Source of the DNA: a virus | Virus record (IMG/VR): IMGVR_UViG_3300010398_001198 | Location: 32,001 to 96,000 of that record | Length of the DNA stretch: 64,000 nt | Strand: one strand, 5' to 3' | Shown here: piece after piece, positions 6,744-38,072 of the stretch | How the letters are laid out: every line of letters begins with the position of its first letter | How positions within the stretch are numbered: position 1 is the first letter of the stretch | The notes under the pieces: generated by a model | Database searches by the model: none | Told to the model about the DNA's origin: nothing | Seen by the model: the letters and a program-made list of their open reading frames with translations, nothing else | Made by a program: the position numbers and the translations under genes

Positions 6744-7796
6744 ATGCCGCACATGCTCGCGCAGCAACATCAGGGCATTTACGACTGTATCCGGGCCGGC
6801 ACGGCCCGGACACATACCACGATCAGTGCAGCGCTCACGGCGATTGGCAGTACCCCAACGATGCTGGTGCTGACCTTTGCCGGGGATGGTATCTGGAGTA
6901 TCGGCGCCAACCTGACGATTCCCACGACCATTACCCTGATGATCCCGCCGGGGGTGACGGTGAACGTGGCGGCGGGGATCACGCTGACCATCAATGGCGC
7001 GTTCCTGAGCTACAATACCGGCTGGAAAACCGGGACCGGCACCGTGGCCCAGACCCTGATTACCTCCCATCTCTCCAGCGGGGTGACGGCCAATACGTTT
7101 CTCGCCCAGCCGGGCGCCGCGACCGGGATAGGGGTGGTCGTGGAGAATGGTCCCGCCTCGACGGCGGCCCGCGTGCGCCTCTTCACCGATCAAGGCGGTG
7201 GACAGTCGGGCCTCCAGATCAGCACCAATGATGCGGCGGCCAATATCCAGGGCTGGCAGATCATCGTGGGGGGCGGCGGCTCGCTCGCCTTTGCCCGGCC
7301 AGGTGGGAATTCGATGATGCTCCTCAGCAATACCGGCTTAGGCATTGGCCTGGGGCAAGTCCCCGGCGGCTTGCTGCAACTGCTCAGCGATAGCGCCTAC
7401 AAGCCCGGGGCTGGGGGGCTCTGGAGTATTCCCTCCTCGCGGGCGCTCAAAGACATCACCGGGGACTATACGGAAGGTCTGGTCCTGCTGCGGCGCTTGC
7501 CCCAGGCGGTCCGCTTTCGCTATAACGGGAAGGGCGGCACCGAGGTGGATGGCCCTGCGGACGTGGGCTTTGTGGCGGAGGACCTCCAGGCCGTCGCGCC
7601 GCAACTGGTACGCGAGGTGGTCAATCCGCACGCCGAGGAGGAACCGGACCTGCCCACCATGCTGGCCACCAATCTGGGCGAGATCCTCTACGTGCTCATC
7701 AACGCCGTGCTCGAACTCGACCGCCGTGGGGGTGGGACTGCCGAAGAGGCCCAGGCTGCACCAGTGCCGCCGCAGCGGCGCCGGAGGACCGCCTGA
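6744..7796 (+). CDS. Tail fibre/spike with C-terminal intramolecular chaperone (peptidase S74)
   Basis: SSRALKDIT...VRFRYNG...GFVAEDLQAVAPQLV...LINAVLEL matches the S74 pattern; strong RBS AGGAGG. Confidence 0.8.
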   Translation: MPHMLAQQHQGIYDCIRAGTARTHTTISAALTAIGSTPTMLVLTFAGDGIWSIGANLTIPTTITLMIPPGVTVNVAAGITLTINGAFLSYNTGWKTGTGTVAQTLITSHLSSGVTANTFLAQPGAATGIGVVVENGPASTAARVRLFTDQGGGQSGLQISTNDAAANIQGWQIIVGGGGSLAFARPGGNSMMLLSNTGLGIGLGQVPGGLLQLLSDSAYKPGAGGLWSIPSSRALKDITGDYTEGLVLLRRLPQAVRFRYNGKGGTEVDGPADVGFVAEDLQAVAPQLVREVVNPHAEEEPDLPTMLATNLGEILYVLINAVLELDRRGGGTAEEAQAAPVPPQRRRRTA

Positions 7797-8053
7797 TGCC
7801 GCAGATCCTCTTGCCGCTGGAAATCAGCCTGCGCATGACCATCGCCATCCTGGAGCGCGACCTGGCGCAGACCCAGGCACGCTTGCTCCAGGTGACCGCC
7901 GAGCACCAGCATCAGGCCAATGTTGCGGCCCTGCTCGCCCAGGCCGGGGTGGCGCTGCCTGTGCCGCTGAGTGCCTGCACGTTTGATGCCGAGCAGGGCG
8001 TCCTGCGCTTTGAGGCAGAGGAGCCGGAGCTCCCGGCCCTCCCAGAGGCCTGA
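7796..8053 (+). CDS. Small coiled-coil protein, possible fibre assembly chaperone
   Basis: 85 aa, coupled to the fibre stop codon (TGATG). Confidence 0.55.
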   Translation: MPQILLPLEISLRMTIAILERDLAQTQARLLQVTAEHQHQANVAALLAQAGVALPVPLSACTFDAEQGVLRFEAEEPELPALPEA

Positions 8054-8075: not shown

Positions 8076-8105
8076 TTGACACCCTCACAGTCTCTCCTAT
8101 ATCAT
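8076..8105 (+). promoter_or_regulatory. Sigma70-type promoter
   Basis: TTGACA (8076-8081), N18, TATCAT (8100-8105). Confidence 0.6.
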
Positions 8106-8112
8106 AGGAGAT

Positions 8113-8158
8113 GCGTGTGGAAGTCGGCCGTAAGGCTCGGCATCCACACGCTTTTTTT
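8113..8158 (+). terminator. Intrinsic terminator-like hairpin directly after the promoter (sRNA or attenuator)
   Basis: GCGTGTGGA...TCCACACGC 9-bp stem with inner GCC-GTAA-GGC, followed by T7. Confidence 0.7.
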
Positions 8159-8310: not shown

Positions 8311-8685
8311 GTGCTGCGTTTCTTCCTCTCTGCACTCCTCCTTGGTCTGCTTCCCACGCTGGTGGATGCCCAGTGTCCGGACCTCACCACGCCGCAAAGC
8401 CCCTTTGCCAAAGAGCCGCTGCTGGTCTCCTCGACCCCGGTGGCCCTGACCGCCTCGATCTATAAGCCGGCGGGCATCATTCCCACCATGGCGGTGGTGA
8501 GTGTGGAGGGCGGCGCCATTCGCTATGAGGTCGTCGGAGCGCCGACGGCCACGACCGGTCACCCGATTGCTGGGACGCCCCCGCAAACCTTTCCCATCTG
8601 TGGCCTGGACTCGATTGCCGCCTTTCAAGCCGTGCGCCAGAGCCAGGACGCGCAACTCTTCATTACCTACTACCGTGCGAAATAG
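8311..8685 (+). CDS. Secreted hypothetical protein (signal peptide)
   Basis: GTG start after GGAGG; MLRFFLSALLLGLLPTLVDA|QC. Confidence 0.75.
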   Translation: MLRFFLSALLLGLLPTLVDAQCPDLTTPQSPFAKEPLLVSSTPVALTASIYKPAGIIPTMAVVSVEGGAIRYEVVGAPTATTGHPIAGTPPQTFPICGLDSIAAFQAVRQSQDAQLFITYYRAK

Positions 8686-8695
8686 GAGCCGTCGC

Positions 8696-11600
8696 ATGCC
8701 GCGCCGCCTCATCTGGCTGTTGAGTCTGCTGCTCGTGCTCCAGCCCGTGGGCCTCGTCGCGCAGGTTCTGCCTCCGCTTGCGCCGGCAGGGGGCGGCAGT
8801 ACCCCGACCTTTCCCGGCTCCCTGTGTACCGATATGGTGGCCATCGGCCAGGACACCGCCGGGCTGATGGTGTGTTCTCCTGTCTTGCCACCCATGGCGC
8901 CAGGGCTGGTGCCGAGTGGAGGGGATGTCAGCGCCAGCGGCCAGGTCCTCCAGACGCACCTGAGTAGCCCCTTGCCTGTCCCCCAGGGCGGGATGGGGCT
9001 CACCACCGGCACATCCGGCGGCATGCCCTACTTCAGTAGTGCCACCACACTGGCCTCGACGCCGACCTTTGCCCTCAATGCGCCCATCCTGGGCGGGGGT
9101 GCAGGCCAATCGCCCGTGCCGGGCACGCTCTCGGGGACGACCCGCGAACTCGCCAGTGTCACCGGTGCACATGTTCCCAACCGCCAGCTGACCTTTGACG
9201 CCAACGGCAACGTGATTGCCAGCCCCTATGACGTCATAGGCGGGGTCCAGGTCCTCAGCGTGTTCGGACGCATCGGGGCGGTCACGGCGCAAAGTGGTGA
9301 CTACACGGCGGCGCAAGTGACACATGCGGCCTCCCTCACCGCCGCCAATGTGTTTACGGATCCTGGGGGCCAGACCATGCCCCTGCTGGCCCTGACCGGC
9401 TCCAGTAGCGGTACGCTCTATGTACGGGCGCCGGCCGCGGCAGGCGTCTCCCTGGTGGTGCTCCCGGCGGGGGTGAGTGATTTCTCGTCGACCGGCGGCC
9501 CGAGTCAGGTCGTGCAGCAGACCACCACGGCAGGGGCGTTCACGGTGAGTCGCCTGAGCCTGGCTGATCTCGCCGATGGGGGGAATGCCTGCACCAGTGC
9601 CAGCCTGTGCCCAGGCTATCAAGCCGCGCTGGGGTTTCCGCCGGAAAACGTCAGCAACAAAACCTCGGACCCGGCGCTCGGGGGCAGTGATTTCCTCTAT
9701 CCCACCCAGGCCGCGGTCAAAGGCTACGTGGATGCCGGGCTGGCGGGGAAGCAAGCCCTCCTGGGCTTTGCGCCGGAAGACCGCGCCAACAAAGCCTCCA
9801 GCGCCGTGCTGGGGACGAGTGACACCCTGTATCCGACCCAGAATGCCGTCAAGGCCTATGTCGATACGGGCCTGGCCGGCAAGCAGGCGAGCCTGGGCTT
9901 CACGCCGGAAAACGTCACCAACAAAGCCACCGCGACCGCCTTAGGGACCAGCAACACGCTCTATCCCACGCAGAACGCGGTCAAGGTCTACGTCGATACT
10001 GGGCTGTCGAGCAAGCAAGACACTCTGGGCTTTACGCCGGAAACCACTGCCAACAAGGCCACCGGGACCACCCTGGGGACGAGTGATACCTTTTACCCCT
10101 CCCAAAATGCCGTCAAGGTCTACGTGGATGCGGCCATTGCGACGGTCCAGGGCAGTATTACCTGGGGGCCGGGCCTCACCTTCAGCGGTGGCGTGGCCAG
10201 TGTCGCCTCGACGGAAACGGGCTTTCTGACGGGCGCCAGCAGTGCCCTCGCGTGCGGGGCCTCGGCGCAGGGCAAGATGCAGGTCCTCGACACTGGCGCG
10301 CTCCAGTACTGCGATGGGGCCACGACGGCCCTGCTCCACAGTGGCTTCCTCACGCAGAGTGGTCTCACCTGGAATGTCACCCCGAGTGCCTGTACGGGCG
10401 ATACCAATGGCGGCAAGCTGACCATTGTGGGCACGGAAATCCGCTGCGCCTCGGACATCGGCGGCACGGGCGGGGCGGGGGGCGTCACCAGCGTGTTCGG
10501 GCGCACCGGCGCGGTGGTGGCCACCGCCGGAGATTATCTGGTCAGCCAGATTACCAACGCTGTCGATGTCACGGCGGCCAACGTCTTTCCGCACGCCAGC
10601 GGCCAGTCGATGCGGCAACTGCTCCTGCCTGGGGCGACCTCGGGAACGCTGACGGTCAAAGCGGCGGCGGTGGCCGGCAGCAGTACGTTGACCTTGCCGG
10701 CGGGGGCGACGGATTTCAGCAGTACAGGCGGTGCGGGGCAAGTGGTGCGCCAGAACGCGGCGGGGGGCGCGCTCACGGTCGCGGCCCTGGCCTTTAGCGA
10801 CCTCACGGGGACCGGCGCGGTGTGTACCACCGCCGGCGTCTGCACGGGCTACCAGGCGACCATCACGTGGGGTGCCGGGCTCAGCGTCACGGGCGCGACC
10901 GCCAGTGTGGCCTCGACCGAAGCAGGCTTCCTCACCACGGGCAGCACGGACCTCACTGCGGGGGCCGGACAAGCCGGGAAGATGCAGGTGATCGCCGATG
11001 GGCGCCTGCAATACACCGATGGCGCCGCGACTCCGCTCCTGCGCCAGGGCTATCTCCTCACCCCCCTGGGCGGCCCGGGCGTGCTCCAGGCGAGTACGGG
11101 GGGCACGAGTCTGGCGGCCTTTGCGGGGAGTGCCTGTAACGATCCTGCGGCGTTTATGACCGGCCTGACGCCCACCGGCGATGCCATCTGCGGCCTCCCT
11201 GCAGCGCTGGTCTTCAGCAGTCGAGCCCTGCTGGCGACGGCGAGCGCGACCTTTCCCAGTGCCGTCAATCTCGGTGCCCTGGCCGGCGGCATCGTCAAAA
11301 CCACCGTCAGCGGGGGTCTGGCGAGCGTGAGTACCGTGATCGCGCCGACGAGCGCCCTGGTGGGGGTGGACGATCCGCAGATCCTCACCCAGAAAGGGGT
11401 GGCGCCGCGTGCCGCCCCATTTGCCGGCGTCTCCCCCGTGGTTGGGAATCTGAGTACCACGGATCTCCTCGTCGTGAGCGGGCTCACCGGGTCCACGCTG
11501 ATCGGCAATCCGCAAGGCGCCACCAGTGCCGGCGGGCTGGTGCGACTCCAGGTGACCTCCGCCACGCCACAACCCCTGACCTGGGATACCCTGTGGAGTA

Positions 11601-12829
11601 GCGAGGGAGGCTCCCCCCTGCCCACGACCACGACCGGCGGCAGCACCTATGACATGTTCTGGTTCCAGTACAACGCCACCTCCGGCAAGCTCGATCTCGT
11701 CTACAACTCGCAACTCATGCAGTGGACCCTCCCCACGGGTGTCACGCCGGGGACCTATACCTGTCCGGGCTCCGTGACGATTGATAGCCGGGGCCGGGTG
11801 ACGGCCATCGCCAACGGCACATGCGGCGGGGGCACGGGAGGCACCCCAGCGGGAGGTGTCGGCGATGTCCAGATCAACGGCGGCGGGGTCCTGGCCGCTG
11901 ATCCCGGCGATTTCGCCTATGACGTGGGCACGAAAACGTTGATCGCCCCGCACCTCCTTGGCTCGCGTCGGCGGACCTATGCCACCTTCCGCGATCTCCA
12001 GGGCCAGGCCACGTATGTGCTCGCCCCGGCCATGCAGAGTAAGGTGCACGTGCAGTCCCTGCCGGATGAGGACGGGGAATACTGCGTTAAGGGGGGGAGC
12101 TGCTTTGCCAGCGGCGGGGTCACGGTCTCCGGTACCCCGACGGCTGGACAAACGGCGGAATTTACCGCGGCGAGCGTGATCCAGGGCGTGAGTACCACGG
12201 GCAGTGGCAGCTATGTCAAGGCCGGGAGCCCGACCCTGACGACCCCCACCATTGCGGCCCTAGCGAATCTCACCAGCAATGGGGTGCTCACGACGAGTGG
12301 GGGCACGGGCACGCTCGTGGTGGATACGGGGGGCACAACCGGCACGGGGGCCTGGGTGAAGGGGACGAATCCGACTCTGACCGGGCCGACGATTGCCGCG
12401 CTGGCGAACCTGACGACCAATGGCATTCTCACCACGACGGGGGGGACGGGTACGCTCGTGGTCGATACGACCACCCGCACCGTCGAGACCGGCGTGCAGT
12501 CCCTCACGTCGAGTACCACCTATACCTGTGTGCGTAATGGCCCGAGTACCCAACCAGTCATGAATGAATGCACCATGACCTACACCGGGGCTGCCGGGGC
12601 CACGGTGACCATCGGCACCTCGGGGACACTCCAGGACGGCGATCGCTTTCTGGTGCGTCTGCGCTGCACGGTGGGGGCGCAGACCATCGCCTACGGCGCC
12701 AATATTATCAATAGCCTGCAAATCATTGGGCCGACGAGCTGCCCGCTCGACGGTGCCCGCGAAATTGTCATAGGACTTCTCTATTCTGCGGCACTCGCCA
12801 AGGCCCAGGTCATTGGGAGTACGAACTAA
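8696..12829 (+). CDS. Long tail-fibre/adhesin-like repeat protein with signal peptide
   Basis: Start MPRRLIWLLSLLLVLQPVGLVA|QV at 8696 (RBS AGGAG); SVFGRTGAV repeats, 4x GFTPEN..NK...LYPTQNAVK.YVD repeats, fibre-tip-like C-terminal domains. Confidence 0.8.
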   Translation: MPRRLIWLLSLLLVLQPVGLVAQVLPPLAPAGGGSTPTFPGSLCTDMVAIGQDTAGLMVCSPVLPPMAPGLVPSGGDVSASGQVLQTHLSSPLPVPQGGMGLTTGTSGGMPYFSSATTLASTPTFALNAPILGGGAGQSPVPGTLSGTTRELASVTGAHVPNRQLTFDANGNVIASPYDVIGGVQVLSVFGRIGAVTAQSGDYTAAQVTHAASLTAANVFTDPGGQTMPLLALTGSSSGTLYVRAPAAAGVSLVVLPAGVSDFSSTGGPSQVVQQTTTAGAFTVSRLSLADLADGGNACTSASLCPGYQAALGFPPENVSNKTSDPALGGSDFLYPTQAAVKGYVDAGLAGKQALLGFAPEDRANKASSAVLGTSDTLYPTQNAVKAYVDTGLAGKQASLGFTPENVTNKATATALGTSNTLYPTQNAVKVYVDTGLSSKQDTLGFTPETTANKATGTTLGTSDTFYPSQNAVKVYVDAAIATVQGSITWGPGLTFSGGVASVASTETGFLTGASSALACGASAQGKMQVLDTGALQYCDGATTALLHSGFLTQSGLTWNVTPSACTGDTNGGKLTIVGTEIRCASDIGGTGGAGGVTSVFGRTGAVVATAGDYLVSQITNAVDVTAANVFPHASGQSMRQLLLPGATSGTLTVKAAAVAGSSTLTLPAGATDFSSTGGAGQVVRQNAAGGALTVAALAFSDLTGTGAVCTTAGVCTGYQATITWGAGLSVTGATASVASTEAGFLTTGSTDLTAGAGQAGKMQVIADGRLQYTDGAATPLLRQGYLLTPLGGPGVLQASTGGTSLAAFAGSACNDPAAFMTGLTPTGDAICGLPAALVFSSRALLATASATFPSAVNLGALAGGIVKTTVSGGLASVSTVIAPTSALVGVDDPQILTQKGVAPRAAPFAGVSPVVGNLSTTDLLVVSGLTGSTLIGNPQGATSAGGLVRLQVTSATPQPLTWDTLWSSEGGSPLPTTTTGGSTYDMFWFQYNATSGKLDLVYNSQLMQWTLPTGVTPGTYTCPGSVTIDSRGRVTAIANGTCGGGTGGTPAGGVGDVQINGGGVLAADPGDFAYDVGTKTLIAPHLLGSRRRTYATFRDLQGQATYVLAPAMQSKVHVQSLPDEDGEYCVKGGSCFASGGVTVSGTPTAGQTAEFTAASVIQGVSTTGSGSYVKAGSPTLTTPTIAALANLTSNGVLTTSGGTGTLVVDTGGTTGTGAWVKGTNPTLTGPTIAALANLTTNGILTTTGGTGTLVVDTTTRTVETGVQSLTSSTTYTCVRNGPSTQPVMNECTMTYTGAAGATVTIGTSGTLQDGDRFLVRLRCTVGAQTIAYGANIINSLQIIGPTSCPLDGAREIVIGLLYSAALAKAQVIGSTN
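9625..10140 (+). repeat. Four tandem ~38-codon repeats inside the fibre gene
   Basis: LGFPPENVSNK..YPTQAAVKGYVD / LGFAPEDRANK..YPTQNAVKAYVD / LGFTPENVTNK.. / LGFTPETTANK..YPSQNAVKVYVD. Confidence 0.9.
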
Positions 12830-13422
12830 TGTCTCTCATTGTTCTCTTCCTCCTGCTGCTGCCAGGCCTCGTCGCGGCACAAGGCTTGACTGATGTCCAG
12901 TACACCCTCTTGCATGACGACATCACGATTACGCATGCGAGCGAGTTCCAAGCCTCGGTCGCTGCCGCCGATTATCAACCGATAGCCGATGCGTACAATC
13001 TCCTGGCCACTGGCCCCTTCTGGGTATGGAGGACAAGTTTAACCCCGAAGGAGATCTATGAGGCGACGGCGGACGGCGGCGGCACCTGGTCGTGGAGCAC
13101 CTATAAGGCGCAGACCCAGCAGGAACGCGACGCATGGCGCGATATGATGGCCCCCAACTTGCTCAATCCCAGTCTCAAACAGACGCGAGATGGCTGGCTC
13201 GCCATCTTCGGGGGACAAGGGGCTAGTCAGGTCCAGGTCAATTATCTCCTTGCCCTGTCCAGGCGCCAGGCCCGGCGGGGGGAAGCCCTGCTGGCCACGA
13301 CCACGAGCGGGAATGGCTCAACAGCGACCCCTGCCACCTTGACGTATGAGGGTCTGATCACCTGGATTGACGTCAACCACGCGGTCAGCGGCGCGCCGCT
13401 TCCTGGAGGGCCACGTCCATGA
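12829..13422 (+). CDS. Secreted hypothetical protein (signal peptide)
   Basis: MSLIVLFLLLLPGLVAA|QG; translationally coupled on both sides. Confidence 0.8.
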   Translation: MSLIVLFLLLLPGLVAAQGLTDVQYTLLHDDITITHASEFQASVAAADYQPIADAYNLLATGPFWVWRTSLTPKEIYEATADGGGTWSWSTYKAQTQQERDAWRDMMAPNLLNPSLKQTRDGWLAIFGGQGASQVQVNYLLALSRRQARRGEALLATTTSGNGSTATPATLTYEGLITWIDVNHAVSGAPLPGGPRP

Positions 13423-14000
13423 TCAGGCGGCTTGTCATCCTGCTGCTCTGTGCGCTGCTCCTGTGGACCTCGGGTGTCGGGGCCGCCACGTCCTTGCAGT
13501 ACACCCTGCCGGGGACCGGGATTACCTTTGGCGACTCCGGGCAGAATGTCCTGATGGTGTTTAGCAACAAAGCCACGGGCACCGGCACCGTCAGCGCCCA
13601 GTATGACAAGAATGCGTTGGCGACGGCCACCGGGGCCATGCCCTCCCTGTGGGCACTCCATTGTCAGATCTCGTTCACCGGCACCAATGTCGTCGGAGCC
13701 ACGGCGGAATTGTACATTGCCCATGCGGACGCCGCCGGCACCACTCAGGATGGCGCGGTTGGGCAGAGTAGTACCACCATCACCAGCGATCAGCGCCGCG
13801 TGCTGACGCCCGTGGGCGTGCTCTCGACGTACCAAACGGCCACCAATACGACCATGTACGCGAGTTTCCGCAACATTTATATTCCCGGCAGATACTTCAG
13901 TTTGGCCTGGTGGAATGCCACTGGGCTCACCAGTGAAACGAGCACGACCAAGCATAAGTGCACGATGTACCCCATGCCCATTCAAGGCCAAGGAACCTAG
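13419..14000 (+). CDS. Secreted beta-rich hypothetical protein (signal peptide)
   Basis: MIRRLVILLLCALLLWTSGVGA|AT; ATGA overlap with the previous gene. Confidence 0.8.
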   Translation: MIRRLVILLLCALLLWTSGVGAATSLQYTLPGTGITFGDSGQNVLMVFSNKATGTGTVSAQYDKNALATATGAMPSLWALHCQISFTGTNVVGATAELYIAHADAAGTTQDGAVGQSSTTITSDQRRVLTPVGVLSTYQTATNTTMYASFRNIYIPGRYFSLAWWNATGLTSETSTTKHKCTMYPMPIQGQGT

Positions 14001-14004
14001 CCCT

Positions 14005-14898
14005 ATGCGCCAGCTTCTGAAGCTCCTCCTCTTCCTCTGTGCTCTGCTCCTCGTGGCGGTCTGTGTGCTGGCACAGCAGAACCCCCAGGTCGTCCTGAGT
14101 GATCCGCTCCTGCGCGGGGCGGTGTCCTGGTGGCGTCCGCTCCTCGGCTTCACGGGGGGGGATCGCCTCTTTGACCTCTTGCCGGCCCAAAACCACCTCA
14201 CCCTCACCAACATGAGCCTGGGAAGCACGTCCGGCTGGAGTCCCACGACGCGGCCCGGGGGCGTGGCGCAGATCAACTGCGACGGGACGGATGACTATCT
14301 CAGCATCCCCAACAACAGCTCGTTCAATCTGAGCGCGGGGTCCCTGGTCGTGTGGGCCATGCGGACCAGCACGGCGGCGGAGATGATCATTGTCTCCATG
14401 AGTGATGGGGGCCTGTGCTGTAACAATTTGCTCGCGCTCGAGTGGAAAAACAATACTAGTGACACCCTACGGATCTTGATCACCAGCGGCGGGGTCGATC
14501 AACTCGTGGTCTCGACCACCTCGACCACGATTGCGCCGGCCAACGTCTGGCATCACCTCGCCTTCACCGTGGACAGCAGCGGCAATGCCCTCTATGTCGA
14601 TGGCGTGCAGGCCGCGATGACGTATGGGACGGGCACCGCAAGCACCACGGCGTTTTTCTCGACCATCTATAGTGCGGCCACCACGTTTGATGTCTGCCGC
14701 ATGAATACCACGGATGCCCCCGCCTATCTGACCGGCGCGATTGCCCAGCTCACGCTCTACAACCGGGCACTCACGGCGGGGGAGGTGATGGCCCACTATC
14801 AGCGCTCCCAGGGCCTGCCGCCCATGGGGCTGCGGGCGGATGAGCTCGTGGCCAGTACCACGTTTCCCACTGGGACCTTGTTGCCTTTTTTCCCCTAA
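14005..14898 (+). CDS. Secreted LamG/concanavalin-A-like lectin domain protein
   Basis: MRQLLKLLLFLCALLLVAVCVLA|QQ; FDGTDDY-like CDGTDDYL, WHHLAFT, LYVDG, LYNRALTAGEV motifs. Confidence 0.85.
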   Translation: MRQLLKLLLFLCALLLVAVCVLAQQNPQVVLSDPLLRGAVSWWRPLLGFTGGDRLFDLLPAQNHLTLTNMSLGSTSGWSPTTRPGGVAQINCDGTDDYLSIPNNSSFNLSAGSLVVWAMRTSTAAEMIIVSMSDGGLCCNNLLALEWKNNTSDTLRILITSGGVDQLVVSTTSTTIAPANVWHHLAFTVDSSGNALYVDGVQAAMTYGTGTASTTAFFSTIYSAATTFDVCRMNTTDAPAYLTGAIAQLTLYNRALTAGEVMAHYQRSQGLPPMGLRADELVASTTFPTGTLLPFFP

Positions 14899-14909
14899 GG
14901 AGATCGCTC

Positions 14910-16406
14910 ATGCGACGACTACCTCTCCTCCTCACTCCCCTGCTCCTCTGGTGTGCCCTCGCCTCGGCGCAGGGGCCACAATCGGTCCCCGGCGTCAACT
15001 CACTCCCTAACGATACTAGTACAGGTACTATTATCAACCGCTTGGCCAAAATCGTTCCGGGTGGCGCTGGGGGCCAGGGCAAGCTCATTCTACCTGCGCC
15101 CACGGATACGCAGATCAAGCTCTATGTGGTCATCGCGGGGGCGGGCACCACCGGGAATGCCCTCTATGTCGAAATCGGCGATGCGGCCTGCGAGATGGAT
15201 AACGCCGTGACGAGCAAGGCCGGCACCTATATCGTCCACGGCACCACGCCAGATGGCGCGGGCAAATACGGTCGCTGCCATCAGGTGGACACCAACCCCT
15301 CCCCTGGGATGGTCATGGGGTCACTGCTCACGGACAATACCGTAGTCGGCGGTCTCGCCCGTATCAGCGCCCAGAACCAGGCGTTTATTCCCGGCTCTGG
15401 GACTGGCACAGGTTCAGTGACGAGCGTCGATGTGACGATGGCGCCGGAGTTCACCAAGACCGGTGGCCCGATCACGGCGGCAGGCACCATCGCCTTCACC
15501 AAAGCGACCCAAACCGCGAACCTGGTCTATGCGGGTCCGGCCTCTGGCGGGGCCACTGCGCCCACCTTTCGTGCCCTGGTGGTGGCCGACCTCCCGGCAG
15601 GCACCGCCTCTGGCAGTTGCGGCGGGGATCTGGGCAGCACGTTTCCGAACTGTACCGTCCTCAAGGCGAGTAGCACGTTTGCCCTGGCGGGGGAGAATGC
15701 CCCGACCGCCCTGGTAGCCGATGTCAATGATTATGTCCTCCCCAGCACCTTTGCAGCCCTCCTCAACGGTGGTGCTGCTGACCGCAACATTACCGGCTTT
15801 GCGGCCCCAGCCCAGGGTGGCGATACCAAGGCGATCTGCAATGTCGGCACGACCAATGCCTTAGTCTTGAAGAACCAGAGTACCGGCTCGGCGGCGGCCA
15901 ATCGCATCCTGGCCACGGATGACGTGACCCTGCCGCCCGATCTGTGCACGCTGCTCCGATACACGACCACCGCGCCCGCTCGCTGGCGACCCCTGGTGAA
16001 CAAACTGCCGGATTATCTCTCTGCGCGCCCGTTCTCCATGCAAATTGGTGATCCGGACCCGACCAGCCCCACGTTGATCGCGGGCAACGATAGTCCTGGA
16101 GGCTGGACGAATCTCTACCGGCGCCAGGTCCAGATTCTGGCCATCGCGTGTATGGGCGATGCGGGGGCCACGACGATTAACCCGATCCTGCGCGGCGGTA
16201 CGGCCACAAGTCTCCTGACGACGCCGTGTACGTGCGGTAACGCGGTTTTTGCCGGGTGCTCCCTGAACGGCCTGCCCCTCGTCAACCCGGCCACTGCCGC
16301 AGGGGCTACGTGTACTACTACACCTTGTAGTATCGACCTGAACATTAACACGGTCGATAACGTCACGCGCCAGGTGACGATTAATGTGGACGCCATTATT
16401 AAATAA
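14910..16406 (+). CDS. Secreted fibre-like protein (signal peptide)
   Basis: MRRLPLLLTPLLLWCALASA|QG; GTGSVTSVD and ANLVYAGPASGGATAPTFRALVVADLP fibre-shaft motifs. Confidence 0.75.
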   Translation: MRRLPLLLTPLLLWCALASAQGPQSVPGVNSLPNDTSTGTIINRLAKIVPGGAGGQGKLILPAPTDTQIKLYVVIAGAGTTGNALYVEIGDAACEMDNAVTSKAGTYIVHGTTPDGAGKYGRCHQVDTNPSPGMVMGSLLTDNTVVGGLARISAQNQAFIPGSGTGTGSVTSVDVTMAPEFTKTGGPITAAGTIAFTKATQTANLVYAGPASGGATAPTFRALVVADLPAGTASGSCGGDLGSTFPNCTVLKASSTFALAGENAPTALVADVNDYVLPSTFAALLNGGAADRNITGFAAPAQGGDTKAICNVGTTNALVLKNQSTGSAAANRILATDDVTLPPDLCTLLRYTTTAPARWRPLVNKLPDYLSARPFSMQIGDPDPTSPTLIAGNDSPGGWTNLYRRQVQILAIACMGDAGATTINPILRGGTATSLLTTPCTCGNAVFAGCSLNGLPLVNPATAAGATCTTTPCSIDLNINTVDNVTRQVTINVDAIIK

Positions 16407-16428
16407 GGGAACAAAAAAGAGGTGCATT

Positions 16429-18429
16429 ATGTGGTCTCTCCTCCTCCTGCTCGCGCTCCTGCTCCTGCCATTTCCTAGTACTGCTAAGACTATATGGGTG
16501 GCCACGTCGGGCGGCAACGATGGGAATTCCTGTACGGCGGCCCAGACCAACACCACGCCCAAAGCCACCATCACGGCGGGCATCGGCTGCCTCGTGGGCG
16601 GCGACACGCTCATTGTGAAAAGCGGCACGTATGCCGAGGCGATCAAAGACACGATCCCGGCAGGCAGTGCGGGGGCGCCCACGACTGTCAAAAGCGAGGT
16701 GCAATACGGCGCCGTGATCAAGCCCAGTTGCTCGGGCTCTGGCCCGCCCTCGGGGTGTGACGTGGTGCTCTATGGCCAGTGTACCATCGTGGCCATTGAA
16801 AAGAGCCACATTGTGTTTGATGGCTTTACCGTAGACGCGGCCAATGCCAATACCGACTGCCGCATCATGATCGACATGGGGGGCTACCATCCCTCGACCG
16901 ACATCGTGGTCCAGAACAACGATGTCGTAGGCCATTGCCCGGATAAAAACTCTGGCTCCAACTGCCTCGGCATGAGTACACACACCGACACGAGTAACGT
17001 CACCGTACGGGGCAATAAAGTCCATGACATTGGGTGGGGCGCACTGCAAAACTGTAACAGCGGTCCCCCCCCCTGTAACAATTTCAACGCCTACTGCACC
17101 TACCTCACCTTTCATGACTCGATCATCGAAAACAACGAGTTCTACAATTGCAGCGGCTATGCCGTTCAGATGTGGTCGTCGGGCTCGCCCACCGATCCCA
17201 CGGGGCCAGACCGCAGTATCATCCGGGGCAATTATGCCCATGATGTCGGCCTCTCCTGTTTCCTCGTGGCGTCGGGGGATGGCCAGCAGGTCTACAACAA
17301 CATCGCGGTCAACTGTGGCAAGTTTTTTGACAGCAGCACCGGCAATACGGTGACCATTCACAGTAGTGCCCGGGGCCTCAACCTCGGCAATTCTGGGCTC
17401 AGCACGACCAACCTCAAGGCGCACTACAATACCGTGGTCGGGAGCACGGGCTATTGTGTCTCCTCCGGGATTGATGCCGGGGGCATTGTCCGCGACACGA
17501 TCTGCTACCAGAACGGGACGAACGGCATCAACACGGTGAGTGGCGTGGCGCCCGTCGCGGATCATAACCTGTTTGGCACCAATCCGCTGTTTACCAACCT
17601 CGGGGATACCCCCTATCAGTTGAGCACCGGCAGTCCCGCCCTCGATACCGGCATCTGTGTGAGCGGGATTGCGAGCGACAAACTCGGTGCGGTCCGCCCC
17701 CAACCCACCGGCGGATCGTGTGATATTGGCGCCTACGAAGGCACCGGAGGGACCGCCCCCACCCCCCCTAGTCTGCTCGCCTGGTGGAAGCTCAATGACG
17801 GCACCGGCACCAGCGCGAGCGATAGCACCGGCAACGGGCACACCGCCACCTGGACGACCGGCCTCACCTGGCAGCCAGGGAAGGTCGGCAGCAAAAGTCT
17901 GGGCTGTGATGGCGTGAATGCCACGACGGTCACCGGCGGGCTCCCGACCACCGCGCCGTACAGCTATGTGTTCTGGATTCAAGGCACGACCACGCCGCCG
18001 ACCTCGGGCAATAATCAGATTGTCGTCCACAATGGCGACACCTCGGATTCCTTTGGCTTTGCCTGGGGCTCGCCGACGACCGGTTTTGACCAGGCAGCGT
18101 ACACGCAAGACGCCAGTGGGAATTACATCGCCGTGCGCCTCACCACGCCCTTACAGGCAGGCCAGTGGTATCACGTCGGCGTGACGTTCGACAACACCAC
18201 CCTGCGCATCTACCTGAATGGCGTCCAGCAAAGCACCGCCGCCGTGACGACCATGAAGGGCGCGACCGGGGACTTCCACTTCTGCGGCACCCCGGCGGGC
18301 ACCAGCACGTATTTCGCCGGCCAGCTCGACGAGGTGAAGGTCTGGAACTACGCCCTCACGGCGGCGCAGGTGCTCCAGGAGTACCGCAGCACCGTGGCGA
18401 GTGTGCGGCACCGCAGTGTGCACCCCTGA
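16429..18429 (+). CDS. Secreted right-handed parallel beta-helix (pectin-lyase-like) + LamG protein
   Basis: MWSLLLLLALLLLPFPSTA|KTIWVATSGGNDGN; repeated ..I.NN...N beta-helix strands; SPALDTG...CDIGAYE; C-terminal LamG (WYHVGVTFD, IYLNG, LDEVKVWNYALT). Confidence 0.85.
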   Translation: MWSLLLLLALLLLPFPSTAKTIWVATSGGNDGNSCTAAQTNTTPKATITAGIGCLVGGDTLIVKSGTYAEAIKDTIPAGSAGAPTTVKSEVQYGAVIKPSCSGSGPPSGCDVVLYGQCTIVAIEKSHIVFDGFTVDAANANTDCRIMIDMGGYHPSTDIVVQNNDVVGHCPDKNSGSNCLGMSTHTDTSNVTVRGNKVHDIGWGALQNCNSGPPPCNNFNAYCTYLTFHDSIIENNEFYNCSGYAVQMWSSGSPTDPTGPDRSIIRGNYAHDVGLSCFLVASGDGQQVYNNIAVNCGKFFDSSTGNTVTIHSSARGLNLGNSGLSTTNLKAHYNTVVGSTGYCVSSGIDAGGIVRDTICYQNGTNGINTVSGVAPVADHNLFGTNPLFTNLGDTPYQLSTGSPALDTGICVSGIASDKLGAVRPQPTGGSCDIGAYEGTGGTAPTPPSLLAWWKLNDGTGTSASDSTGNGHTATWTTGLTWQPGKVGSKSLGCDGVNATTVTGGLPTTAPYSYVFWIQGTTTPPTSGNNQIVVHNGDTSDSFGFAWGSPTTGFDQAAYTQDASGNYIAVRLTTPLQAGQWYHVGVTFDNTTLRIYLNGVQQSTAAVTTMKGATGDFHFCGTPAGTSTYFAGQLDEVKVWNYALTAAQVLQEYRSTVASVRHRSVHP

Positions 18430-23862: not shown

Positions 23863-24540
23863 TTAGTGGGTGTGTTGACACTCTCTGCCCATGGCTCGAT
23901 AGGCAGCCTCTTGTGCCGCCTGCTTCATGCGATCAATATCAAAGGAGTACGCAAATCCATGTTCTGTGGTCCATTCCAGCTTGAAGAAATCCACCTGCTC
24001 CAGCCTATAGAGACAGCCAAGAATTGTTGGTGTTTCTTCAACGGTATATGCCCGTAAGATTGCAAAGGATATCCAGCCATAACAGCGCAATGGCTCAATG
24101 GTCCAGGCATTTGCATGCTCGAACAGCGCTAATGCTGTAAAGGCTAGAGATGGCGTGTCCATGCGAGGGAGCGCATGAATACTTAGGATATGCAGCCAGG
24201 TTAAGGACACAGGGCATGTATAGACAAAGCCACCATCATCTGGTGCTGTTCTCTCCTCTTGGGCTTCTGGTAATTGGTGCGTATGTTTCTCGCCCCAAAA
24301 TCGCCAATCTCCCTTACTTACGAGATATGCTCGAAACTCCTCGACCCCCTTCGTATTCTTCCGGCTATTACACGAGTTGCACGCAGGTACGAGGTTGGCT
24401 AACTCATCGCCACCCCCGTTGTTGCGTGCGTCTTGATGCTCAATCGTGAAGTCGTCAAAGGGATTCATCTGCTTGCCACAGTACCAACAGTGTCCATTGG
24501 TCTTCGCCCAGACCTGCGGGCGATATTGCTTGTAACTCAT
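23863..24540 (-). CDS. HNH endonuclease with an extra C-terminal domain
   Basis: CWYCG...TIEHQDARNNGGGDELANLVPACNSCNSRK; probable start MSYKQY at 24540; AT-rich. Confidence 0.85.
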   Translation of the reverse strand: MSYKQYRPQVWAKTNGHCWYCGKQMNPFDDFTIEHQDARNNGGGDELANLVPACNSCNSRKNTKGVEEFRAYLVSKGDWRFWGEKHTHQLPEAQEERTAPDDGGFVYTCPVSLTWLHILSIHALPRMDTPSLAFTALALFEHANAWTIEPLRCYGWISFAILRAYTVEETPTILGCLYRLEQVDFFKLEWTTEHGFAYSFDIDRMKQAAQEAAYRAMGRECQHTH

Positions 24541-24678
24541 GCTCTGCCCTCTCTGCGTGCAAAACTGCCTACGATTGAGTAGGCTTATGTGACATTGCAA
24601 GACGTTCAATGAGAATAAGCAATGTCTAAATGCATGAGAGGATTGTAGCATTTTCAAATGTAACCTGCAACAAATCTC

Positions 24679-24707
24679 TTGCAATAAAGCATATCTTCCG
24701 GCATACT
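24679..24707 (+). promoter_or_regulatory. Sigma70-type promoter in an AT-rich divergent region
   Basis: TTGCAA-N17-CATACT upstream of the XRE gene. Confidence 0.55.
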
Positions 24708-24729
24708 CTCTTCTAGGAGGCCATGCATT

Positions 24730-24975
24730 ATGACGTTGGGTGAACGCATACGAGCCCGTCGAAAACGTCTCGGATTGAGTCAGGGCAAGCTGGCGCGTCG
24801 GGCAGACATTGATCAGGGGCAACTCTCCCGCATTGAGTCGGGTGAGACGACCAATCCTGGCATTCAGCCCTTGACCGCGATTGCGCGTGCCCTCGACTGT
24901 TCGCTGGACTACCTTGTGGACCGCTATGATGAGGACCATGTTGACCCCTCATGTGCGATGGCTGCCTCTACCTAA
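24730..24975 (+). CDS. XRE-family HTH regulator (Cro-like)
   Basis: MTLGERIRARRKRLGLSQGKLARRADIDQGQLSRIESG...LDCSLDYLV; RBS AGGAGG. Confidence 0.9.
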   Translation: MTLGERIRARRKRLGLSQGKLARRADIDQGQLSRIESGETTNPGIQPLTAIARALDCSLDYLVDRYDEDHVDPSCAMAAST

Positions 24976-36335: not shown

Positions 36336-37535
36336 GTGGCGCTCAATTGGCAGGTGGCGCTGCGCACGCAACTGCGCACCCATGTCCTCCGCACCGTCGT
36401 CCTTGGTGGCGTAACGGTGGGCATCCTCTGGTGGGGGCTGTCGCCGCCGTCCCGTGTCACCCCGCCCGCCGTGGCGAAAGTCCAGCCGCTGCCAAGTGCC
36501 GGGGTGCAGCGGGCACCGATGGCGGAGGGCTTCCTGACCCTCCAGAACGATCTGCGCGAGCTCAAAGGATCGGTGGCGGAGGAGAAACAGACGAACCGGG
36601 CCTTGCGCGAGGAACTGCGGACGGCGGCGCAAGACCGGAAGGTCGCGGATGAGGCACACAAGCAGGAACTGCTGCAACTGACCCGGCAGATGCAGGAAAC
36701 GGAGCGCAAGATGGCGGCCGCCGCCGCGACCAAGCCGGCGCCAGCACTCCCAGCACCACGGCCCCAGCCTGCACCTCTTGTCACGCTCGCCAAGCCTGCG
36801 GTCGAGGATCTCAAGATCACGATCCTGCGCTCCAAAGAGGGGGCGAGCTTTCCCACGAAGACCGCCCGTCCCGCGCGGACTGACGCCCCCTATCTGCCCG
36901 CCGGCTCGCTTGCGGGTGCCCGGCTGATCACCGGCGCCATGGCCTCGACGCGGGAGGCTGGTGCCATTCCCGTCTTGCTGGCGCTCACGACGCCGTTTGT
37001 GCCGCCGTGGCAACTCCAAGGGCCTGGGGCCAATCCGCTCCCCACCGCCATGCCGATCCAGGGCTGCTTTGTGCTGGGACGCGCCGTCGGGGACCTGGCC
37101 AACTCGCGCACGATCATCAAAGGCGAACTCCTCTCCTGCGTCTTACCGGATGGCACCGCGTTTGAGGCGCCGCTCAAAGCGTATGTGATTGGGCTCGATC
37201 ATTCCTATGGCCTGGTCTGTGAGGTGACCAAACATGAAAGCGCCGCGATCCTCAAGGCGTTTCTGACCGGGCTCCTGCAAGAAGCCTCGGCGGCCTTTGG
37301 GGTGGCACGCAGCAAGCTCGTGGTGACCTCCGGCAGTGGCCCGCAGCCCTTTTCAGGCGCCCAGACCTCGCTGCAAAAGATCAGCGATTTTTACTTGCAA
37401 CAGGCCCAGTTCCTGTTGCCGACGTGTTGGGTGCAGGCCAATACCCCGGCGCGCCTTGTCGTCGAAGAAGGCGTGCCCCTGGAAGGCGTACCGACCCAGC
37501 ATGTGTACTTTGCACGTCGTTTAGGCATGCCGTAG
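36336..37535 (+). CDS. traB: TraB (VirB10/TrbI-like)
   Basis: TM, coiled coil, Pro-rich linker, YLPAGS..A.LITG...GCFVLG.A.GDL...R..I....LSCV. Confidence 0.9.
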   Translation: MALNWQVALRTQLRTHVLRTVVLGGVTVGILWWGLSPPSRVTPPAVAKVQPLPSAGVQRAPMAEGFLTLQNDLRELKGSVAEEKQTNRALREELRTAAQDRKVADEAHKQELLQLTRQMQETERKMAAAAATKPAPALPAPRPQPAPLVTLAKPAVEDLKITILRSKEGASFPTKTARPARTDAPYLPAGSLAGARLITGAMASTREAGAIPVLLALTTPFVPPWQLQGPGANPLPTAMPIQGCFVLGRAVGDLANSRTIIKGELLSCVLPDGTAFEAPLKAYVIGLDHSYGLVCEVTKHESAAILKAFLTGLLQEASAAFGVARSKLVVTSGSGPQPFSGAQTSLQKISDFYLQQAQFLLPTCWVQANTPARLVVEEGVPLEGVPTQHVYFARRLGMP

Positions 37536-37544
37536 AAGGAGAGC

Positions 37545-38072
37545 GTGATGCCACCTGATGAGTATTGTTGGCAGTACATGAGTGCCCTGCTGGGCGTGCT
37601 GGTGCTGCTCCTCATCGCCTGCCTCTTTGGCGCCTGTACTGCGGCGCAGCAAGGTCCGCCGATTCCTGACGTTCTGCCCCTCACGGCACCGGAGCCCGTG
37701 CCCGCCCCGGCTCTGCCTCTACCTCTGCCTGCCGCTGTCCCTGGCCCGGCTGTTGCGCCGCAGCAGTTCCGGGCCTGGGTCCCGCCGCAGACGACGGCAG
37801 CCGGTGACCGCATCGAGGGCCATTGGGCCGTGATTTCCCTGACCCCGCCTCCCGCAGAGACCTTGGAGCCTGCCAAGACGATCCCGCGTACGCCGCGCCA
37901 GGTCATCCCGGCGAAGGTGAGCACGGCACCGATTGCCCGGCCACAACCGGCGGATATGCCCACCCCCGTCCTGCCGGGACAGGCGCCACTGTTTGGCACG
38001 CCGCCGATGCTGGCCGTGCCCAGTGCTCCCACGCTGGCACCGCCCGTCCTGCTGCCTGGAGGGACGCCGTAA
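37545..38072 (+). CDS. traV: TraV-like lipoprotein
   Basis: Lipobox-like LFGAC; FRAWVPPQTTAAGDRIEGHW motif; Pro-rich. Confidence 0.7.
   Translation: MMPPDEYCWQYMSALLGVLVLLLIACLFGACTAAQQGPPIPDVLPLTAPEPVPAPALPLPLPAAVPGPAVAPQQFRAWVPPQTTAAGDRIEGHWAVISLTPPPAETLEPAKTIPRTPRQVIPAKVSTAPIARPQPADMPTPVLPGQAPLFGTPPMLAVPSAPTLAPPVLLPGGTP

What the first reader, a model, noticed from the sequence alone, without database searches (positions are those of the whole stretch)
8311..18429. Seven consecutive phage-fibre-like genes that all carry Sec signal peptides
Seen: all seven ORFs start with a hydrophobic core and a small-residue cleavage site (VDA|Q, LVA|Q, VAA|Q, VGA|A, VLA|Q, ASA|Q, STA|K); five expose Gln at +1, and several are Cys-rich. 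The mature parts look like virion appendages (fibre-shaft repeats, fibre-tip-like domains, two LamG domains, a pectin-lyase beta-helix). The upstream baseplate and S74-fibre genes have no signal peptide. Known: tailed-phage structural proteins normally assemble in the cytoplasm. Inference: either virion appendages that are exported, disulfide-folded and added at or after lysis, or fibre genes repurposed as a cell-surface adhesin apparatus, possibly recognising mating partners for the adjacent T4SS.
Basis: partly seen in the sequence, partly recalled or inferred. Interest (0 to 1): 0.82.

Follow-up and report, generated by a model that had tools for sequence, protein, structure and literature searches.

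The report
Exported phage fibre gene block
A soil phage encodes, right after its normal tail genes, seven fibre-, lectin- and sugar-cutting-type proteins that all carry secretion signals and paired cysteines. Part of its host-recognition gear is therefore almost certainly made outside the cytoplasm, which the textbook picture of tailed-phage assembly does not include.

Summary
All seven genes (window 8311-18429) start at Shine-Dalgarno-supported codons with a classic Sec/signal-peptidase-I leader. All seven mature proteins have an even cysteine count (0, 2, 2, 4, 12, 20, 20). The leaders are conserved in relatives: all 32 g6 homologues have one, and about 22 g3 homologues do. Thirteen leaderless g3 relatives, and a 60%-identical paralogue on this contig, start where the predicted cut lies.

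Genes g2-g7 form a mobile cassette. It recurs in order, always with leaders, in a related record (G001) and in two complete 54-kb P22-like podovirus genomes (G002, G006). The block has its own near-consensus promoter followed directly by a terminator hairpin.

g2 is a modular repeat fibre. g6 combines a capsid-cement/phi29 head-fibre-base fold with tailspike-type domains. g5 and g7 carry LamG. g3 is an all-helical protein with no fold match, not a fibre.

Export and extracytoplasmic folding are well supported. Whether the proteins then join virions at lysis (my best guess, about 45%) or act free or on the cell surface is open. The scan has noted exported phage fibres on other DNA before. I found no paper describing such blocks.

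The parts
6744..7796 (+). Context: canonical leaderless short tail fibre with a C-terminal S74 intramolecular chaperone (350 aa)
   Evidence: Pfam Peptidase_S74 E 1.7e-4, 22.3 bits. No signal-peptide-like N-terminus. 36% identical orthologue in G001.
7796..8053 (+). Context: 85-aa leaderless protein after the fibre gene, last gene of the tail operon
   Evidence: ORF with GGAG-type site. 57% identical orthologue in G001. No family match.
8076..8105 (+). Sigma70-like promoter TTGACA-18-TATCAT (11 of 12)
   Evidence: one of three 11/12 sites on both strands of the 122.6-kb contig. The same layout (TTGACA-18-TACAAT) lies before the g1 orthologue of G001.
8108..8158 (+). Promoter-proximal hairpin followed by T7 (intrinsic-terminator-like leader)
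   Evidence: Fold -30.2 kcal/mol, z -5.7, 0 of 200 shuffles as stable. An equivalent hairpin plus T7 occurs in G001. No Rfam match.
8311..8685 (+). g1: 124-aa protein, leader MLRFFLSALLLGLLPTLVDA|Q, 2 conserved Cys. Found only in G000 and G001.
   Evidence: (62% identity in G001). No Pfam or PHROG match.
8696..12829 (+). g2: 1377-aa modular fibre with leader. It has an N-domain, a duplicated ~130-aa module, about four 44-aa shaft repeats, and a conserved C-terminal ~190 aa. It holds 20 Cys in 10 local pairs.
   Evidence: internal repeats; 1491 proteins share its N-region modules, and the N-domain always sits right after a ~20-33-aa leader.. C-terminus 67-69% identical in 4 other phages.
12829..13422 (+). 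g3: 197-aa all-helical protein with leader, start overlapping the g2 stop (TAATG). Candidate assembly or adaptor factor (inferred).
   Evidence: leader-bearing and leaderless subfamilies; 60% identical leaderless paralogue at contig 10345-10857; pLDDT 91.6; no fold match.
13419..14000 (+). g4: 193-aa beta-rich protein with leader, 2 conserved Cys
   Evidence: six homologues, all with leaders. No family match.
14005..14898 (+). g5: 297-aa LamG (concanavalin-like lectin) protein with leader, 4 Cys
   Evidence: Pfam Laminin_G_3 E 7.6e-21. Leaderless paralogue at contig 11619-12494, 29% identity. Orthologues with leaders.
14910..16406 (+). g6: 498-aa three-domain protein with leader, 12 Cys. The N-domain is a jelly roll like capsid cement and phi29 head-fibre base. 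Then come a fibre motif, a tailspike/TSP4-N-like middle domain and a C-terminal jelly roll.
   Evidence: 32 of 32 homologues with a leader, a small|Q junction in nearly all, even Cys; the residue 166-232 motif is shared with 45 proteins carrying it, 40 without a signal-like start; pLDDT 82; fold matches, Z up to 11.5.
16429..18429 (+). g7: 666-aa right-handed beta-helix plus C-terminal LamG with leader, 20 Cys. Depolymerase or tailspike-like. 2-3 paralogues in relatives.
   Evidence: Pfam Laminin_G_3 E 1e-23 and Beta_helix 23.1 bits, sub-threshold. Paralogues in G001 and G002, with Beta_helix 30.3 bits. The LamG part matches arabinanase chains 5hon/5ho0.

Best explanation
The block is a conserved, horizontally mobile phage cassette. 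It encodes an accessory host-recognition set: a long modular fibre (g2), a cement/TSP4-like protein (g6), a beta-helix-LamG depolymerase-like protein (g7), a LamG lectin (g5) and three small partners (g1, g3, g4).

Well supported: the proteins are made with Sec-type leaders, cut by signal peptidase I and oxidised to disulfide-bonded form in the periplasm.

Inferred from sequence only: the block is transcribed as its own unit from a strong promoter whose transcript meets a terminator at once, which suggests antitermination-dependent, lytic-cycle expression.

Inferred and untested: the exported proteins pre-assemble outside the cytoplasm. They dock onto finished virions when holin holes and lysis mix the cytoplasm with the periplasm. 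g1 and the g2 N-domain would act as the tail-type-specific adaptors.
For: Export:
- SD-supported starts and textbook leaders.
- Leaders kept in every orthologue in G001, G002 and G006 and in four more metagenome loci, while the leader sequence itself diverges.
- 32 of 32 g6 homologues have leaders and even Cys counts.
- The g3 family splits into leader-bearing members and leaderless members that start at the junction.
- All seven mature proteins have even Cys counts, and cysteines are conserved or exchanged in pairs.

Virion-type parts:
- The g6 N-domain matches capsid-cement and head-fibre-base proteins: HFTV1 Z 11.5, Sf11 10.8, phi29 gp8.5 9.8.
- The g6 middle domain matches tailspike and CBA120 TSP4 N-terminal domains, Z 7.6-9.5.
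- The g6 fibre motif and the g2 modules are shared with many proteins that mostly lack a signal-like start.

Adaptor pattern: g1 and g2 residues 1-183 are shared only with G001, which has the same baseplate, 748-aa and S74 fibre genes. The g2 C-terminus and g3-g7 are also shared with P22-like podoviruses.

Investment: the block takes 12 kb of a complete 54-kb genome and sits where the tailspike gene lies in P22-like phages.

Regulation: the promoter-plus-terminator layout is conserved in G001.

From general knowledge: decoration proteins and tail fibres can bind finished particles in vitro.
Against: - No tailed phage is known to add exported parts to its virions, and I have no proteomic data.
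- The myovirus already has a complete leaderless baseplate J / 748-aa / S74-fibre / 85-aa set, so the block is not needed for a canonical tail.
- Its own promoter separates it from the tail operon.
- The genome also holds leaderless paralogues of g3 and g5 in the head-neck region. These could be the virion-bound versions.
- g3 is not fibre-like.
- Beta-helix plus LamG plus a leader is also the usual build of ordinary secreted bacterial glycan-degrading enzymes.
- The host and its envelope type are unknown. No trained signal-peptide predictor was run.
Confidence: 0.45

Rival explanations
1. The proteins are exported but never become part of the virion. They act in trans on the envelope or surroundings of the infected or lysogenic cell. 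Possible roles are secreted capsule/EPS depolymerases and lectins that clear the way for progeny, or surface-displayed fibres like Bdellovibrio MAT adhesins that change adhesion or block receptors.
For: - The block has its own promoter, apart from the tail operon.
- A canonical leaderless fibre set is present upstream.
- Leaderless paralogues of g3 and g5 lie elsewhere in the structural region.
- g7 has the build of secreted glycan-active enzymes, and its LamG matches an extracellular arabinanase.
- Precedent: MAT fibres have a signal peptide followed at once by a conserved N-domain and are surface-localised (PMC10769870). The g2 family has the same layout.
- Porphyromonas phages encode signal-peptide proteins read as envelope modifiers (PMC10367356).
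Against: - The cassette takes about a quarter of a complete 54-kb podovirus genome and sits at the tailspike position. That is large for an accessory function.
- g1 and the g2 N-terminus co-vary with tail type.
- g6 carries virion-docking-type folds.
- The promoter-proximal terminator argues against simple constitutive prophage expression.
- No C-terminal anchor or sorting signal is visible in the translations.
Confidence: 0.35
2. The block is an adhesin set that serves the neighbouring T4SS by recognising or stabilising mating partners.
For: G000 carries an F-like T4SS 19 kb downstream: TraC, TraU and a coupling protein. The closest relative G001 carries a VirD4-type coupling protein.
Against: - G002 and G006 are complete (direct terminal repeats, CheckV 100%) 54-kb P22-like phage genomes. 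Both have the g2-g7 block but no coupling protein, and G002 has no TraC.
- The T4SS types of G000 and G001 differ, while the block is orthologous.
- In all records the block abuts tail or ejection-protein genes, not tra genes.
Confidence: 0.04
3. The hydrophobic N-termini are not cleaved Sec leaders. They could be uncleaved membrane anchors, Tat signals for pre-folded export, or products of wrong start calls.
For: No SignalP or TatP run was possible. g2, g4 and g6 have Arg-Arg in the n-region.
Against: - Starts are fixed by ribosome sites and by orthologues.
- Cores are 11-16 residues, short for a membrane span, very Leu-rich, and preceded by n-regions of only 2-4 residues. That is unlike Tat or SAR signals.
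- Ala at -1 in all seven. A conserved small|Q junction across about 50 homologues.
- Leaderless relatives begin at the junction.
- No Cys at +1, so they are not lipoproteins.
- Paired cysteines fit folding after Sec export.
Confidence: 0.05

Closest known systems
Canonical tail fibres, tailspikes and branched multi-tailspike complexes of tailed phages (T4 gp9/gp10-type attachment domains, CBA120 TSP4, phi29 head fibre gp8.5, capsid cement proteins)
   Same: Position at the end of the tail module. Modular repeat fibre (g2). The g6 domains match cement/gp8.5-base and TSP4-N/tailspike folds. Beta-helix plus lectin build of g7. Shared sequence motifs with many proteins of this kind that lack a signal-like start.
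   Different: Every protein here has a cleavable-looking export leader and paired cysteines. Canonical fibres have neither and assemble in the cytoplasm. The block also has its own promoter and terminator leader.
Bdellovibrio bacteriovorus MAT (mosaic adhesive trimer) fibres (Caulton et al. 2024, PMC10769870)
   Same: Phage-fibre-like proteins with a signal peptide followed directly by a conserved N-terminal domain, then variable fibre and tip. The g2 family shows this layout.
   Different: MATs are chromosomal genes of a predatory bacterium, and the paper shows surface localisation. Here the genes sit in phage genomes as a multi-gene cassette. Homology of the N-domains was not tested.
Signal-peptide proteins of Porphyromonas gingivalis phages that obey the Bacteroidetes Q-rule (Matrishin et al. 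2023, PMC10367356; Bochtler et al. 2018, PMC5837995)
   Same: Phage-encoded Sec/SPI substrates with Gln exposed at +1. That holds for 5 of 7 proteins here and for nearly all g6 and leader-bearing g3 homologues.
   Different: Those are a few genes of unknown function, read as envelope modifiers, with no fibre block named. Here the host is unknown, and other signal-peptide proteins of the same contig (TraU and others) do not show Gln at +1.
Exported morons in tail-fibre regions, such as lambda lom, and receptor-blocking lipoproteins, such as T5 Llp (from my own knowledge)
   Same: Signal-peptide-bearing phage genes placed among or after tail-fibre genes, with their own promoter.
   Different: Those are single small genes without fibre architecture. 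Here a 10-kb, seven-gene conserved cassette is built from fibre, lectin and beta-helix modules.
Lambda PR'-tR' late promoter unit controlled by the Q antiterminator (from my own knowledge)
   Same: A near-consensus sigma70 promoter is followed within about 50 nt by a strong intrinsic terminator, ahead of late-type genes.
   Different: No Q-like gene or Q-binding element was identified. Here the unit drives only this block, not the whole late operon.

Membership tests
Sec / signal peptidase I (type I) signal peptide | Short basic n-region, hydrophobic h-region of about 7-15 residues, small uncharged residues at -3 and -1 | tested here: met
   All seven by direct reading and a home-made rule. 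Ala at -1 in all seven; V, L, A or S at -3.
Sec / signal peptidase I (type I) signal peptide | Positive call by a trained predictor (SignalP), and experimental cleavage or export | not testable with these tools
   No predictor or experiment was available. Indirect support: the leader is conserved in about 50 homologues, and leaderless relatives start at the junction.
Tat signal peptide | S/T-R-R-x-F-L-K motif, long n-region, weakly hydrophobic core | tested here: not met
   R-R occurs in g2, g4 and g6. However, n-regions are 2-4 residues and cores are Leu-rich, with mean Kyte-Doolittle 2.2-3.8. No full motif. TatP was not run.
Lipoprotein (signal peptidase II) signal | Lipobox with Cys at +1 | tested here: not met
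   The +1 residues are Q, Q, Q, A, Q, Q and K.
Virion tail fibre / tailspike (receptor-binding protein of a tailed phage) | Fibre or tailspike modules shared with known phage fibres | tested here: met
   g2 repeats and widely shared modules. g6 motif shared with proteins carrying T4_gp9_10_N, DUF5907 or DUF2793. g6 folds. Not met for g3.
Virion tail fibre / tailspike (receptor-binding protein of a tailed phage) | Made without an export signal and assembled in the cytoplasm | tested here: not met
   All seven carry leaders.
Virion tail fibre / tailspike (receptor-binding protein of a tailed phage) | Physically present in purified virions | not testable with these tools
   No cultured relative. 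The closest isolated phages share only about 27% identity in the sheath.
Pfam Laminin_G_3 (PF13385) | Score above the gathering cut-off | tested here: met
   g5 75.3 bits and g7 84.6 bits against a cut-off of 27.6.
Pfam Beta_helix (PF13229) | Score above the gathering cut-off | tested here: inconclusive
   g7 scores 23.1 bits against a cut-off of 25.9. The G002 paralogue scores 30.3 bits.
Bdellovibrio MAT fibres | Signal peptide directly followed by a conserved N-terminal domain, then fibre and variable tip | tested here: met
   In the g2 family the N-domain always starts at residue 21-34. Four retrieved members have leaders.
Bdellovibrio MAT fibres | Homologous N-domain; cellular gene; surface localisation | not tested
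   No MAT N-domain sequence was on hand. The genes here are phage-borne. Localisation needs experiment.
Lysogenic-conversion moron | Own promoter and terminator, foreign composition, sporadic presence | tested here: inconclusive
   Own promoter: yes. GC 0.60-0.68 is like the rest of the contig. The block is conserved as an ordered cassette in at least 7 loci, which is unlike sporadic morons.
Q-type antiterminated late transcription unit | Strong sigma70 promoter with a promoter-proximal intrinsic terminator | tested here: met
   Conserved in G001.
Q-type antiterminated late transcription unit | Q-like antiterminator gene and its binding or pause site | not tested
   I did not search for one.

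The most novel reading that the evidence does not exclude
Tailed phages of several morphotypes (a ~125-kb contractile-tailed phage, P22-like podoviruses, siphovirus-like relatives) build a branched, disulfide-bonded host-recognition complex in the periplasm from Sec-exported parts. They dock it onto cytoplasm-made virions only at lysis. This would be an extracytoplasmic step in tailed-phage assembly carried on an exchangeable gene cassette.
Probability: 0.4. Interest if true: 0.85.

Novelty: new variant of a known kind. Interest (0 to 1): 0.66.

Why it matters
Tailed-phage particles are taught to assemble wholly in the cytoplasm. A conserved, mobile cassette of exported, disulfide-bonded fibre, lectin and depolymerase-type proteins means one of two things. 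Either there is a post-export assembly step, or phages make a large class of secreted host-surface effectors from fibre parts. Both bear on how host range is predicted from phage genomes, since leader-bearing fibre genes are currently annotated as ordinary fibres or ignored. Both also bear on how receptor-binding proteins should be expressed (periplasmic, oxidising conditions). The system is directly testable once a relative is cultured or the proteins are expressed.

Tried and rejected
Host identity:
- A genome-contig scan with the g3 alignment found no relative.
- The g3 family has no match in 50,697 GenBank phages. The sheath is at most 27% identical to any isolated phage.
- TraC is only 23-27% identical to any plasmid.
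- No tRNA genes were found. The record flagged as a provirus (G004) shows no recognisable host flank.

Function leads:
- g2, g6 and g7 have no informative sequence match to solved structures, apart from the LamG part of g7.
- The ESM Atlas gave only sub-threshold viral leads for g6.
- g3 has no fold match: Foldseek PDB best E 1.2, VIA best Z 4.7, BFVD best E 1.3.
- g4 shows no profile similarity to the 153-167-aa protein of the leaderless cassette (hhalign probability 0.3%). Only g3 and g5 have demonstrable leaderless paralogues.
- The contig has no thioredoxin/DsbA-like or glutaminyl-cyclase gene.
- The leader region has no Rfam family.

Literature: three full-text searches found no paper describing tail-fibre blocks with signal peptides. 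The rumen-phage paper PMC5723332 only counts 1-2 signal peptides.

An AAA_10 search missed even G001's VirB4-like gene, so it is not used as evidence. Complex prediction was not used, because I had no well-founded pair to test.
Full report
CONTEXT. The window is bases 32001-96000 of a single 122,663-bp virus record, 63% GC, with a CheckV completeness estimate of 77%. The record is a real tailed phage:
- a major head protein (phrog_1005, E 5e-67) near its left end;
- a large terminase at its right end;
- a tail sheath (Pfam Phage_sheath_1; about 27% identical to myovirus sheaths);
- an SLT-domain protein, a LysM baseplate protein and baseplate J;
- a 748-aa repeat protein, and a 350-aa fibre ending in an S74 chaperone domain.

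Downstream of the finding lie F-like T4SS genes (TraC, TraU, a coupling protein) and an integrase.

Seven co-directional genes fill 8311-18429. For g2, g5 and g7 the longest ORF starts further upstream. In all seven, however, the start with a GGAG/GAGG/AGGA-type site 6-10 nt upstream is the one that puts the hydrophobic segment at the N-terminus. g3 and g4 overlap the preceding stop codons.

Each leader has 1-3 basic residues, a Leu-rich core of 11-16 residues and Ala at -1. Gln follows the predicted cut in five of the seven.

My own rule-based scan flags all six block genes that the gene caller retained. It flags 12 of 129 other ORFs on the contig, several of them expected periplasmic T4SS proteins. 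None of the baseplate, S74-fibre or 85-aa genes is flagged. At that background, seven in a row is about 5e-8 per position.

The mature proteins hold 2, 20, 0, 2, 4, 12 and 20 cysteines, which is always an even number. In g2 they form ten local pairs 6-25 residues apart. Of 31 upstream structural-region proteins, 16 have odd counts.

THE LEADERS ARE UNDER SELECTION.
- The g3 family (57 proteins) splits in two. About 22 aligned members have a variable hydrophobic leader ending in a conserved A|QGLTEAQY-type junction. Thirteen have no leader and start with Met at that junction.
- One leaderless member, 60% identical to g3, lies on this same contig at 10345-10857. A leaderless LamG paralogue of g5 lies beside it at 11619-12494.
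- All 32 full-length g6 homologues have a leader: 30 by my rule and 2 by eye. Nearly all have a small|Q junction, and all have an even cysteine count.
- All six g4 homologues have leaders and two conserved cysteines.
- In g6 orthologues, cysteines are either conserved or exchanged two at a time.
- The N-domain of g2 is found in other proteins only directly after a 20-33-residue leader.
- By contrast, 40 of 45 proteins that share only the g6 fibre motif (residues 166-232) lack a signal-like start. These include proteins with T4_gp9_10_N, DUF5907 or DUF2793 domains.

So, relative to leaderless relatives, the leaders are an addition, and they are kept.

A MOBILE CASSETTE, NOT TIED TO THE T4SS.
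- Record G001 (67 kb) shares the end of baseplate J, the 748-aa protein, the S74 fibre, the 85-aa protein and g1-g7, at 28-67% identity. It has three g7 paralogues, and all these genes have leaders.
- Records G002 and G006 are about 54 kb, have direct terminal repeats and are rated 100% complete by CheckV. G002 has a P22-like gene order: terminase, portal, scaffold, coat, Hc3 hub, ejection protein.
- G002 shares with my phage only the C-terminal part of g2 plus g3-g7. These lie in the same order, all with leaders, and directly follow the ejection-protein region. G006 carries a similar leader-bearing block; a g3-like gene was not seen in my ORF listing of that locus.
- Four more metagenome loci with a g6 homologue show the same all-leader neighbourhood.
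- A siphovirus-like record, G004, has five leader-bearing genes, one of them a LamG, after its tail-tip genes.
- G001 has a VirD4-type coupling protein (E 8e-58). G002 and G006 have none, and G002 has no TraC match.

WHAT THE PROTEINS ARE.
- g2 is a modular fibre. It has an N-domain, a 130-residue module duplicated at 186-312 and 597-725 (53% identity), about four 44-residue shaft repeats, and a C-terminal ~190 residues that are 67-69% identical in four other phages. Its modules occur in 1491 database proteins.
- g6 was modelled at pLDDT 82. It has an N-terminal jelly roll like capsid-cement proteins and the phi29 head-fibre base (Z 9.8-11.5). Its middle domain resembles tailspike and CBA120 TSP4 N-terminal domains (Z 7.6-9.5). 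It ends in a C-terminal jelly roll.
- g5 and g7 have LamG domains. g7 also has a beta-helix that is sub-threshold here but above threshold in a paralogue.
- g3 was modelled at pLDDT 91.6. It is all-helical and has no match in the PDB or BFVD, so it is not fibre-like. Its translational coupling to g2, and the recurring g3-x-LamG order in both the leader-bearing and the leaderless cassettes, suggest an assembly or adaptor role. That is inference.
- g1 and g4 are unassigned.

REGULATION. Right after the 85-aa gene there is a TTGACA-18-TATCAT promoter. It is one of only three 11/12 sites on the whole contig. A hairpin of -30.2 kcal/mol plus T7 follows at once, about 150 nt before g1. G001 has the same promoter-hairpin-T7 layout, although the surrounding sequence differs. 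From my own knowledge, this resembles the lambda PR'-tR' unit. It suggests that the block is a separate, antitermination-dependent unit rather than a constitutively expressed prophage moron. I did not look for the antiterminator.

HOW IT MOST LIKELY WORKS. Export by Sec, cleavage by signal peptidase I and disulfide formation outside the cytoplasm are well supported. What happens next is inferred.

Several points favour docking onto virions at lysis:
- The parts are of virion type.
- g1 and the g2 N-terminus co-vary with tail type, while the g2 C-terminus and g3-g7 are exchangeable. That is the pattern of fibre adaptors.
- The cassette takes about a quarter of a complete podovirus genome, at the tailspike position.
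- Cement-type and fibre proteins are known to bind finished particles in vitro (my own knowledge).

Several points argue against it:
- There is no precedent.
- The myovirus already has a complete leaderless fibre set.
- The block has its own promoter.
- Leaderless g3 and g5 paralogues exist elsewhere in the genome.
- g7 resembles ordinary secreted glycan-degrading enzymes.

I put about 45% on post-export docking and 35% on action in trans (secreted depolymerases or lectins, or MAT-like surface fibres). The T4SS link and non-export each get a few percent.

LITERATURE AND EARLIER NOTES. The closest published items are:
- Bdellovibrio MAT fibres, which have a signal peptide followed by a conserved N-domain and are surface-localised (PMC10769870);
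- signal-peptide proteins of Porphyromonas phages that obey the Bacteroidetes Q-rule (PMC10367356 and PMC5837995).

Three searches found no description of leader-bearing fibre blocks in tailed phages. Earlier notes of this scan report similar blocks in at least seven other genomes. I took them as leads only.

LIMITS. No trained signal-peptide predictor was available. The host is unknown.

Noticed in passing
window 8076-8158: A near-consensus sigma70 promoter is followed at once by a strong hairpin plus T7, about 150 nt before g1. The same layout occurs in relative G001. It looks like a lambda PR'-tR'-type unit or a tiny RNA gene. No Rfam match.
   Followed up: partly
L001:10345-12969 (contig coordinates, left of the window): A leaderless paralogous cassette: a g3-like protein (170 aa, 60% identity), a CxxC-rich 253-aa protein, a LamG 291-aa protein and a 153-aa protein. 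The same cassette sits at varying places (after neck genes, or after the terminase) in siphovirus-like contigs L006, L007, L010-L012, L015 and L020. In some, the LamG protein is fused to a 1258-1338-aa body.
   Followed up: partly
L025:5288-6670 and L025:8960-11515 (record G001): The closest relative carries a VirD4-type coupling protein (E 5e-56) and a weak VirB4-like ORF. It has no match to the F-like TraC of this phage. So two related phages hold different T4SS types.
   Followed up: partly
G001 contig 37028-39889 (L026:17028-19889): An ORF starting MCGIAGW (asparagine-synthase-like by eye) and a glycosyltransferase-like ORF lie directly beside the leader-bearing block. This may hint at glycosylation or amidation of the exported proteins. 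Neither was scanned with HMMs.
   Followed up: no
L029:1-3924 (record G004): A siphovirus-like record has five consecutive leader-bearing genes, including a LamG, directly after its 1758-aa and 497-aa tail-tip genes. It also carries the leaderless g3-like cassette in its neck region.
   Followed up: partly
window 12829-13422 (g3): A confidently modelled (pLDDT 91.6) helical protein family of about 57 members with no fold match in the PDB or BFVD. It may be a new fold.
   Followed up: yes
window 8311-18429 and homologues: Gln follows the predicted cleavage site in 5 of 7 proteins, in nearly all g6 homologues and in most leader-bearing g3 homologues. This matches the Bacteroidetes Q-rule. Other signal-peptide proteins on the contig (for example TraU at 45862-47121) have other residues there. 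The meaning for host assignment is unclear.
   Followed up: partly
contig ends (L001:3994-4935 and L004:11360-14137): The major head gene lies at the left end and the large terminase at the right end of the record, and no portal gene was seen. The record looks like a circularly permuted, slightly incomplete genome that encloses the T4SS genes.
   Followed up: no
window 23863-24939 (- strand): An HNH endonuclease ORF (Pfam HNH, E 3e-9) lies in the region between the fibre block and the T4SS genes.
   Followed up: no
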